Origin: the human T2T-CHM13v2.0 reference genome, Homo sapiens
NCBI RefSeq assembly: GCF_009914755.1
Contig: NC_060926.1
Length of the DNA: 64,000 nt
Direction: 5' to 3' (one strand)
Part shown: one piece after another, positions 18,948-21,723 of the stretch
Layout: the number at the start of each line of letters is the position of its first letter
How positions within the stretch are numbered: the first letter of the stretch is position 1
The notes under the pieces: generated by a model
Seen by the model: the letters and a program-made list of their open reading frames with translations, nothing else
The model's database searches: none
Told to the model about the DNA's origin: nothing
Translations under genes and position numbers: made by a program

Positions 18948-21723
18948 CGAGACTCCATCTCAAAAAAAATAAAAAAAAGACAGCCTGGCCAACATGGTGA
19001 AACCCTGTCTCTACTGAATGTATAAAAAATTATCTAGGCGTGGTGGCACATTCCAGTAATCCCAGCTACTCGGGAGGCCCAGGCAGGAGGATCGCTTTAA
19101 CCAGGGAGGTGGAGGTTGAAGCGAACCAAGATTGCACCACCTCATTCCAGCCTGGGCAACAGGGTGAGACTCAATCTCAGAAAAAAAAAAGAAAAAAAAA
19201 AAAGGCCAGCCTGGCCAACATGGTGAAACCCCATCTCTACTAAATATAAAAAGAAATTAGCTGGGCGTGGTGGCACATGAATGTAATCCCAGCTACTCGG
19301 GAGGCCCAGGCAGGAGGATCGCTTGAACCCTGGGGGTGGAGGCTACAGCGAGCCAAGATTGCACCACTGCACTCCAGCCTGGGCAACAGGGCGAGACTCC
19401 ATCTCAGAAAAAATAAAATAAAATAGACCAGCCTGGCCAACACGGTGAAACCCCATCTCTACAAAATATACAAAAAAATTAGCTGGGCGTGCTGGCACAC
19501 GTCTGTAATCCCAGCTACTCGGGAGGCCCAGGAAGGAGGATCGCTTGAATCAGGGAGGTGAAGGCTGCAGCGAGCCAAGATTGCACCACTGCACTCCAGC
19601 CTGGGCAACAGAGTGAGACTCCATCTGAAAAAACAGAAGCATTCCAGCCTGGCCAATAGAGCGAGACTCCATCTCAAAAAAAAAAAAAAAAAAAAAAACA
19701 CCAGCCTGGCCAACATGGTGAAACCCCGTCTCTTCTAAATATACAAAAAAAATAGGGCCGGGCGTGGTGGCTCATGCCTGTAATCCCAGCACCTTGGGAG
19801 GCCGAGGTGGGTGGATCACGAGGTCACGAGATCGAGACCAGCCTGACCAACATGGTGAAACCCCGTCTCTACTAAAAATAGAAAAATTAGCTGGGTGTGG
19901 TGGCACATGCCTGTAATCCCTGCTACTCGGGAGGCTGAGGCAGGAGAATTGCTTGAACCTGGGAAGCGGAGGTTGCAGTGAGCCGAGATGGCGCCACTGT
20001 ACTCCACGGTGGTGTCAGAGCGATACTACATCTCAAAAAAAAAAAAAAAATTAGCTGGGTTTGGTGGCACACACCTGTAATACCAGGTACTCGGGAGGCC
20101 CAGGCAGGATGATCACTTGAACCCGGGAGGGGGTGGTTGCCGTGAACCAAGATTGTACCACTGCACTCCAGCCTGGGCAACAGGGCGAGACTCCATCTCA
20201 GGAAAAAAAAAAAAAAAAAAAGACGAGCCTGGCCAACATGGTGAAACCCCGTCTCTAGTAAATATACAAAGAAATTAGCTGGGTGTGGTGGCACATGAAT
20301 GTAATCCCAGCTACCCGGGAGGCCCAGGCAGGAGGATCGCTTGAACCTGGGAGGTGGAGGCTGCAGCGAGCCAAGATTGCACCACTGCACTGCAACCTGG
20401 GCAAAAAAGTGAGACTCCATCCGAAAAAAAATAAGCACTCCAGCCTGGGCAATAGAGCGAGACTCCAACTCAAAAAAAAAACAAAAAACAAAAAGACCAG
20501 GTTGGCCAACATGGTGAAATCCCGTCTCTACTAAATATACAAAAAAAATTAGCTGGACGTGGTGGCACAGGCCTCTAATCCCAGCTACTGGGGAGGCCCA
20601 GGCAGGAGGATCACTTGAACCTGGGAGGTGGAGGCTGCAGCGAGCCAAGATTGCACCACTGCACTCTGGCCTGGGCAACAGAGTGAGAGTCCATCTGAAA
20701 AAAAAGAAGCACTCCAGTCTGGTCAACAGAGCGAGACTCCATCTCAGAAAAAAAAAAAAAAAAAAAAAAAAAAGACCAGGTTGGCCGACATGGTGAAACC
20801 CCGTCTCTACTAAATACACAAAAAAATTAGCTGGGCGTGGTGGCACACTCCTGTAATCCCAGCTACTCGAGAGGCCCAGGCAGGAGGATCGCTTGAACCC
20901 AGGAGGTGGAGGTTGCAGCGAACCACGATTGCACCACTGCACTCCAGCCTGGGCAAGAAAGTGAGATTCCATCTGAAAAAAAAGCACTCCAGCCTGGGCA
21001 ATATAGCAAGACTCCATCTCAAAAAAAAGAAAAAAAAAAAAAAGACCAGCCTGTCCAACACGGTGAAACCCCATCAGTACTAAATATACAAAGAAATTAG
21101 CTGAGCGTGGTGGCACACGATTGTAATCCCAGCTACTCGGGAGGCCCAGGCAGGAGGATCGCTTGAACCCGGGAGGTAGAGGCTGCAGCCAGCCAAGATT
21201 GCACCACTGCACTGAACCCTGGACAACAGAGTGACACTCCATCTGAAAAAAAAGAAGAACTCCAACCAGGGCAATGGAGCGAGACTCCATCTCAGAAAAA
21301 AGAAAAAAAAAAGAGCACCTTGGCCAACATGGTGAAACCCCGTCAGTACTAAATACGCAAAGAAATTAGCTGAGCATGGTAGCACACGAATGTAATCCCA
21401 GCTACTCGGGAGGCCCAGGCAGGAGGATCACTTGAACCCGGGAGGTGGAGGTTGCAGCGAACAAAGATTGCACCACTGCACTCCAGCCTGGGCAACAGAG
21501 CGAGACTCCCACTCAGAAAAAAAAAAGAAAATGAAAAAAAACACCAGCCTGGCCAACATGGTGAAACAACGTCTCCACTAAATATACAAAAAAAATAGAT
21601 GGGCGTGGTGGCACTCATCTCTAATCCCAGCTACTCGGGAGGCCAACGCAGGAGGATCACTTGAACACAGGAGGTGGAGGCTGCAGCTAGCCAAGTTTGC
21701 ACCATTGCACTCCAGCCTGGCAA
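18948..21723 (+). repeat. Tandem Alu array block 1 (ten 5'-truncated AluJ-like monomers plus a nested AluS)
   Basis: Monomers begin at about (a)gaccagcctggccaac at ~18979, 19204, 19425, 19699, 20221, 20494, 20773, 21043, 21313, 21541. Each but the last ends in an A-rich tail. ggaggatcgcttga is AluJ-type. Confidence 0.95.
19756..20050 (+). mobile_element. Full-length AluS (Sg/Sc-like) nested in the A-rich linker of monomer 4, present in every unit
   Basis: Starts ggccgggcgtggtggctcatgcc; has ggatcacgaggtc (2-nt deletion type) and ggagaattgcttga. Flanked by aaaaaaaatag and aaaaaaaattag; the host monomer resumes at ttagctggg. Confidence 0.9.

What the first reader, a model, noticed from the sequence alone, without database searches (positions are those of the whole stretch)
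18979..21723. Alu-derived satellite: ten head-to-tail truncated Alus descend from one ancestor by DNA-level duplication
Seen: the monomers start at the same point (about AGACCAGCC, ~85 nt into Alu, losing the A box and most of the B box) and have no spacers or TSDs between them. Most share non-consensus variants: GGAGGCCCAGGCAGG (consensus GGCTGAGG), CTAAATATAC (consensus CTAAAAATAC), GCAGCGAGCCAAGATT (consensus GCAGTGAGCCGAGATC). Established: independent retrotransposition would not give a common truncation point and common private variants. Inference: one AluJ-like element was duplicated through A-tail/AGAC microhomology and expanded into a Pol III-promoterless array.
Basis: partly seen in the sequence, partly recalled or inferred. 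Interest (0 to 1): 0.75.

Follow-up and report, generated by a model that had tools for sequence, protein, structure and literature searches.

The report
Alu-born satellite nested in CAGC macrosatellite
Ten shortened Alu copies lie head to tail and share rare mutations, so they were likely copied from one old Alu by DNA recombination; the block is likely the shrunken remnant of a 30-copy array, is itself repeated six times, and is probably a neutral passenger whose seed may survive at the tip of X and Y.

Summary
The array is real: ten Alu monomers of 220-280 bp, cut at about Alu base 82, joined A-tail to start. With 65 monomers from four other arrays they form one clade (100/92) apart from 40 dispersed Alus. 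A 35-base diagnostic pattern has 70 genome hits, 66 inside these arrays, so it is no standard subfamily. The block plus 4 kb of CAGC repeat forms a 6.9 kb unit, six times in tandem, 0-5 substitutions apart. A truncated Alu pair near the start of the X/Y-like contigs is the only dispersed match carrying the full signature and is the candidate seed (mosaic test p 0.06-0.08). No function is shown. It is a new variant of a known kind, a transposon-derived satellite.

The parts
13358..18946 (+). Diverged (CAGC)n host satellite upstream of block 1
   Evidence: TRF periods 4/17/26
18947..18978 (+). Leading partial monomer (last ~15 bases plus A-tail); 5' junction with the CAGC repeat
   Evidence: same junction flank at 13 places in the genome
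18979..19697 (+). Monomers 1-3 (222, 222, ~273 bp; monomer 3 has the 3' end duplication); match monomers 1-3 of the 30-mer
19698..20221 (+). Monomer 4, split in its A-rich linker by the nested Alu
19756..20050 (+). Nested full-length AluS-type element with A- and B-box regions and an A-rich ~10 bp target-site duplication
   Evidence: groups with dispersed Alus in the tree; 0 of 5 family variants
20222..21312 (+). Monomers 5-8 (269-279 bp, each with the 45-50 bp 3' end duplication); 5 is a mosaic, 6 matches no. 25, 7 is a 26/27 chimera, 8 matches no. 28 of the 30-mer
21313..21723 (+). Monomers 9-10 (match nos. 29-30); monomer 10 stops at the position just before that where the leading partial monomer begins
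21724..25982 (+). CAGC spacer, the other half of the ~6.9 kb higher-order unit
25983..28761 (+). Alu block copy 2
32917..35693 (+). Alu block copy 3
39807..42584 (+). Alu block copy 4
46711..49485 (+). Alu block copy 5
53466..56241 (+). Alu block copy 6
56242..64000 (+). (CAGC)n host satellite downstream; two more blocks follow just outside the window

Best explanation
This is a tandem array of ten 5'-shortened Alu monomers of one lineage, likely made by DNA recombination from one aged AluS copy, likely cut down from an array of 30 or more, and repeated six times as part of a 6.9 kb unit with CAGC satellite; it is probably a neutral passenger. Steps: (1) the founder was a genomic AluS-type copy that had already lost 9 of 15 CpG sites (shown for the consensus; ageing in the genome is inferred, ~0.9). 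(2) Recombination between two head-to-tail truncated Alus defined a ~225 bp unit, with its middle from the downstream copy and its 3' end, tail and junction from the upstream copy; the pair at C23:769.67-770.10 kb is the likely relic (inferred, ~0.5). (3) The unit multiplied by unequal exchange or rolling-circle copying (inferred) and entered CAGC satellite once for the C2 and C22 arrays, probably as an opened circle, because its two ends abut at one monomer position (shared junctions shown; circle ~0.35). (4) End duplications and an AluS insertion followed (shown). (5) Segmental duplication spread it (shown by shared junctions and orthologous monomers). (6) In this lineage, recombination inside the array removed about 20 monomers (chimera shown; direction inferred, ~0.85). 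(7) The 6.9 kb unit multiplied very recently (near-identity shown; age inferred).
For: One clade 100/92 holding all 75 monomers plus the second Alu of the pair, against 40 dispersed Alus. Pattern hits: 66 of 70 in arrays, 2 at the X/Y pair, 2 dispersed singles without the truncation. Founder CpG loss and S-type state. Window monomers map to nos. 1-4, 25, 26/27, 28-30 of the 30-mer, whose monomers are all 5-20% from their nearest neighbour and so are not a recent gain. Same 5' junction flank at 13 places on C2 and C22; same 3' junction in all C2 and C22 arrays fetched. Six blocks differ by 0-5 substitutions in ~2776 bp, spacers by 2-10 in ~4 kb. Pair: both copies start at the same base and share the linker variant (1 of 34 dispersed S/Y Alus). 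Copy 1 is family-like at its 5' part and 3' end (0 and 1 of 40 dispersed Alus closer) but ordinary in the middle (15 closer); copy 2 is family-like in the middle (0 closer) but ordinary at the 3' end (22 closer). Copy 2 has the dispersed-Alu base at all 11 non-CpG sites that vary within the family, as a basal copy should.
Against: The mosaic pattern misses significance (35 sites; one switch p 0.075, two switches p 0.055), and three of the family states shared with copy 1 and not copy 2 are at CpG-type sites common by chance (10-17 of 34). Both copies of the pair share a CpG decay at column 35 that most monomers lack. No simple event explains why copy 1 is cut at the same base as copy 2. Copy 1's place as sister is weak (91/58), a dispersed Alu falls between it and the clade, and the bootstrap had not settled. 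The C15 arrays have different junctions. The clocks disagree: monomers keep 61% of founder CpGs against 26% in dispersed Alus, yet non-CpG divergence is equal (6.9% and 6.4%). No empty insertion site was found. Lack of function is assumed, not tested.
Confidence: 0.62

Rival explanations
1. Same DNA-level array, but the X/Y pair is a recipient: a piece of the array was copied into a resident Alu there and partly overwritten by gene conversion; the true seed is lost or was inside the CAGC satellite.
For: Mosaic test not significant; mosaic monomers show that conversion acts on this family; the equal start of both copies is easy to explain if both came from an array.
Against: Copy 2 belongs to no derived sub-lineage (11 of 11 ancestral states), differs from the family by opposite-strand decay at three CpG-type sites and has a different 3' end, so several extra conversions are needed.
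Confidence: 0.27
2. The array is a concatemer made at RNA or cDNA level (repeated template jumping or reverse transcription of a tandem read-through transcript) and inserted once by L1 machinery.
For: Every monomer ends in an A-tail and joins the next directly.
Against: Both array ends fall inside a monomer with no terminal A-tail or target-site duplication; the founder was CpG-depleted; monomers lack the promoter part; in-array chimeras show DNA exchange.
Confidence: 0.06
3. Independent Alu insertions piled into one another's A-tails and were later homogenised by gene conversion.
For: One independent insertion did occur inside the array; monomers differ by 9-26% pairwise.
Against: Identical start point in all monomers, a star-like single clade, and shared fixed CpG losses.
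Confidence: 0.02
4. The 6.9 kb six-fold repeat is an assembly artefact or is kept by selection for a function near the kappa locus.
For: Copies are nearly identical; the hub annotation lists an enhancer at 13306-14075 beside the satellite edge.
Against: Each unit has its own spacer length (3980-4259) and own substitutions; monomer number varies from 5 to 30 among loci, which argues against constraint; no gene is annotated in the window (hub note).
Confidence: 0.03

Closest known systems
(CAGC)n simple-sequence arrays at 2p11.2 and 22q11.1 (Warburton et al. 2008, PMC2588610; passages and table rows seen)
   Same: Host satellite with periods 4, 9, 17, 26 on the same two chromosomes.
   Different: The word Alu has 0 occurrences in that text; no higher-order structure is noted on its two CAGC rows.
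Transposon-derived tandem repeats from Alu (Ahmed and Liang 2012, PMC3389668; passages seen)
   Same: Alu-derived units multiplied locally, most like one another.
   Different: In the passages seen, units are short parts of an Alu or mostly two copies; here the unit is most of an Alu with its tail, up to 30 copies, spread to several chromosomes.
Satellites born from tandem transposon dimers (McGurk and Barbash 2018, PMC5932611; passages seen)
   Same: Dimer, then unequal exchange or rolling circle; arrays with partial end units and later insertions.
   Different: Drosophila elements; Alu is not mentioned; here no target-site duplication can be read at the A-rich monomer junction.
T2T composite repeats: ajax/teucer super-repeat, AluSx-WaluSat, HSat1B, and an undescribed 'AluJb fragment' entry (Hoyt et al. 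preprint 10.1101/2021.07.12.451456, passages and section 5; Altemose et al. preprint 10.1101/2021.07.12.452052, passages)
   Same: Transposon plus satellite units that spread by segmental duplication and form higher-order arrays.
   Different: In those, the Alu is a single passenger per unit or lies beside the satellite; here the Alu itself is the monomer. Whether the 'AluJb fragment' entry is this monomer could not be checked (supplement closed, journal version not held).

Membership tests
Transposon-derived satellite / tandem repeat | Head-to-tail units homologous to a transposon | tested here: met
Transposon-derived satellite / tandem repeat | Units closer to one another than to dispersed copies | tested here: met
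   clade 100/92; 8.8% to family consensus against 16.2% to dispersed consensus
Macrosatellite / higher-order repeat | Multi-kb unit in tandem with high identity between units | tested here: met
   unit 6755-7036 bp, six blocks, 0-5 substitutions per block
Macrosatellite / higher-order repeat | Copy number varies among people | not testable with these tools
   one genome held
AluJ subfamily | J-type bases at J/S diagnostic columns | tested here: not met
   3 of 19 columns J-like; J group is 6 rows labelled from the tree and recalled motifs, no Dfam consensus on hand
AluS lineage | S-type bases at J/S diagnostic columns | tested here: met
   16 of 19; finer subfamily not assigned
Retrotransposed Alu subfamily with these variants | Many dispersed copies sharing the variants, each with its own ends | tested here: not met
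   4 of 70 hits outside arrays, two being the X/Y pair
ajax/teucer, WaluSat, D20S16 | 49, 64 or 49/98 bp monomer as described | tested here: not met
   periods here are 4/17/26 and 222-280 against the descriptions; no direct sequence comparison
Hoyt et al. 'AluJb fragment' repeat entry | Match to that model's sequence and coordinates | not testable with these tools
   only named in the text seen

The most novel reading that the evidence does not exclude
The human genome holds the whole life history of a satellite born from Alu: a seed dimer still sitting in the X/Y pseudoautosomal tip, whose Alu-Alu recombination circle was copied into a concatemer, jumped into a CAGC satellite on other chromosomes, spread by segmental duplication, collapsed, and was re-amplified as a young, probably polymorphic 6.9 kb macrosatellite beside the kappa locus.
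Probability: 0.28. Interest if true: 0.7.

Novelty: new variant of a known kind. Interest (0 to 1): 0.45.

Why it matters
How dispersed transposons become satellites is usually argued from flies and plants. Here a donor candidate, a dated nested insertion, shared junctions and arrays of 5, 6, 10, 24 and 30 monomers sit in one genome, so the dimer-to-array and circle-insertion models can be tested directly with ape and monkey assemblies. Practical points: repeat annotation probably counts these as many independent Alu insertions (not checked here), and the young 6.9 kb repeat next to the kappa locus is a likely site of unrecorded copy-number variation. No effect on genes or health is shown.

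Tried and rejected
Identity with ajax/teucer (recalled lead) and D20S16: rejected on the described unit sizes. Rfam: 26 matches at E up to 1, all below gathering score, SRP and Alu-like miRNA models only. Empty insertion site: all 13 hits of the 5' flank motif are followed by Alu sequence. A second copy of the X/Y inverted junction: none among 40 scored candidates; best other hits 86-89% and none spanning the junction. An Alu at the donor side of the C15 junction: none at the break; the array joins a 96% copy of C22:31.52 Mb through a short fold-back. Transversion-rich mutation in the array: distinct changes 124 of 201 against 69 of 174, p 2e-5, but singletons p 0.08 and only 22 recent non-CpG changes, so inconclusive. 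The C12 hit is an ordinary full-length Alu (1 of 5 variants). Rows dropped: near-identical paralogues (L033-L035, L037, L041, first block of L036) and listed mis-hits before alignment; 3 more mis-hits before the tree. The background is small, 43 Alus, because a planned larger sample could not be obtained. Literature: nine searches found no description of this array; subscription papers, the journal version of Hoyt et al. and preprint supplements were not seen and may hold one.

Full report
Observation. The stretch 18947-21723 is a block of Alu-derived units between two runs of diverged CAGC repeat. Ten monomers start directly behind an A-rich tail, at the base that lies 82-83 bases into dispersed full-length Alus. 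Units are 220-230 bp, or 269-279 bp where the last 45-50 bases are doubled (monomers 3, 5, 6, 7, 8). Monomer 4 is split in its linker by a full-length Alu (19756-20050) flanked by an A-rich duplication of about 10 bp. That duplication is exact in the two longer C2 arrays and one base off in the window. The nested Alu keeps the A- and B-box regions (box positions recalled), so the block is not free of promoters or target-site duplications.

One ancestor. I aligned 75 monomers (window 10, C2:87.41 Mb 24, C2:91.70 Mb 30, C15 6, C22 5), a pair from C23, and 43 dispersed Alus. Five columns separate the family from dispersed Alus. Eight of ten window monomers carry all five, while 35 of 43 dispersed Alus carry none. 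In the tree of 117 rows all 75 monomers and copy 2 of the pair form one clade (100/92) with a star-like interior; bootstrap values are rough. A 35-base pattern over three of the variants hits 70 places: 61 in C2 arrays, 4 on C15, 1 on C22, 2 at the C23/C24 pair and 2 dispersed singles that lack the truncation. A retrotransposed subfamily would be dispersed (established knowledge). The family consensus lacks 9 of the 15 CpG sites seen in dispersed S/Y Alus, which points to an old genomic copy as founder (inference). It follows the S-type group at 16 of 19 columns where my J and S groups differ, so it is not AluJ-like. The labels rest on the tree and recalled motifs; no Dfam model was on hand.

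This copy shrank. Window monomers 1-4 match nos. 1-4 of the 30-mer, 6 matches no. 25, and 8-10 match nos. 28-30 (0-5% apart). Monomer 7 is no. 26 in its first half and no. 27 in its second, and monomer 5 is a mosaic. Within the 30-mer every monomer is 5-20% from its nearest neighbour, so the middle twenty are old and were lost here, most simply by recombination between monomers (inference).

Higher-order repeat. The block recurs six times at 6755-7036 bp spacing. Blocks differ by 0-5 substitutions and spacers by 2-10 plus length changes. Two more blocks follow the window and two lie near 89.76 and 89.94 Mb, 1.2-1.5% away. Differences near 0.1% are of the order seen between human alleles (recalled), so this last step is young and may vary among people (untested).

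Entry into the satellite. All C2 and C22 arrays fetched share both junctions, and the 5' flank motif occurs 13 times, always before Alu sequence. The 3' end stops at the monomer position just before that where the 5' end begins, each side with 4-5 bases that also occur in the satellite. Two independent ends would rarely abut, so an opened circle of whole units is a fair reading, but microhomology bias could do the same and no empty site was found. The C15 arrays have another 5' junction and end in a short fold-back onto a 96% copy of C22:31.52 Mb.

Candidate seed. At C23:769.67-770.10 kb, with a near-identical copy on C24 (pseudoautosomal by my reading of contig sizes; recalled), two Alus lie head to tail, both starting at the family's first base, behind an inverted Alu half. 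Both carry the linker variant. Copy 2 has all five variants and is family-like in the middle but not at the 3' end; copy 1 is the reverse. A unit running from late in copy 1 to the same point in copy 2 would be the monomer. Copy 2 shows the dispersed-Alu base at all 11 non-CpG sites that vary within the family. Against this, the mosaic test gives p 0.055-0.075, several informative sites are CpG decays, both copies share one decay that most monomers lack, and the equal start of copy 1 is unexplained. I put the seed reading at about one in two.

Age. Non-CpG divergence from the founder (6.9%) equals that of dispersed S/Y Alus (6.4%), and the nested insertion is AluS-type, which suggests tens of millions of years. 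CpG retention (61% against 26%) suggests a younger date or low germ-line methylation. Monomers are not independent rows, so these figures are rough. An excess of transversions is inconclusive.

What is known. The CAGC arrays at 2p11.2 and 22q11.1 are listed by Warburton et al. without mention of Alu (PMC2588610, passages). Alu-derived tandem repeats (PMC3389668, passages), dimer-born satellites (PMC5932611, passages) and T2T composites (preprints) cover the kind. Nine searches found no account of this array. Hoyt et al. name a new 'AluJb fragment' entry that I could not compare; their supplement was not visible and may already hold this monomer.

Verdict. A real, old Alu-monomer satellite of single origin, reduced at this locus and re-amplified inside a young macrosatellite; most likely without function. 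New variant of a known kind; interest 0.45.

Noticed in passing
window 3525-4309: Five tandem copies of a 159 bp unit (87% matches) whose consensus looks like an L1 3' fragment (recalled): a second transposon-derived tandem close by.
   Followed up: no
window 6457-6794 and 10528-11071: Two-copy tandems of 161 bp (Alu right arm, minus strand) and 276 bp.
   Followed up: no
window 12765-13357: AT-rich 26/46/140 bp repeat that runs straight into the CAGC satellite; the annotated enhancer 13306-14075 covers this boundary, not the Alu block (hub note).
   Followed up: no
L038 5949-5970 (C15:19.56 Mb), mirrored in L037: The array ends in a short fold-back and joins a 96% duplicate of C22:31.52 Mb; the two C15 loci are inverted near-identical copies.
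   Followed up: partly
window monomers 6, 7, 8, 9 (20495, 20774, 21044, 21313): Several recurrent double substitutions turn near-palindromes into perfect ones (around the monomer start and before the linker), as template switching would; adjacent doubles are also in excess in dispersed Alus, so not specific.
   Followed up: partly
window 13358-18946, 21724-25982, 56242-60300: The CAGC flanks on both sides of the six-unit array share about 3.3 kb of near-identical sequence with the spacer, a trace of an earlier duplication.
   Followed up: partly
L031 6035-6070 and the matching monomer in L032: One array tail is an (AAC)n repeat like the tail between the two Alus of the C23 pair, but the next monomer does not resemble copy 2.
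   Followed up: partly
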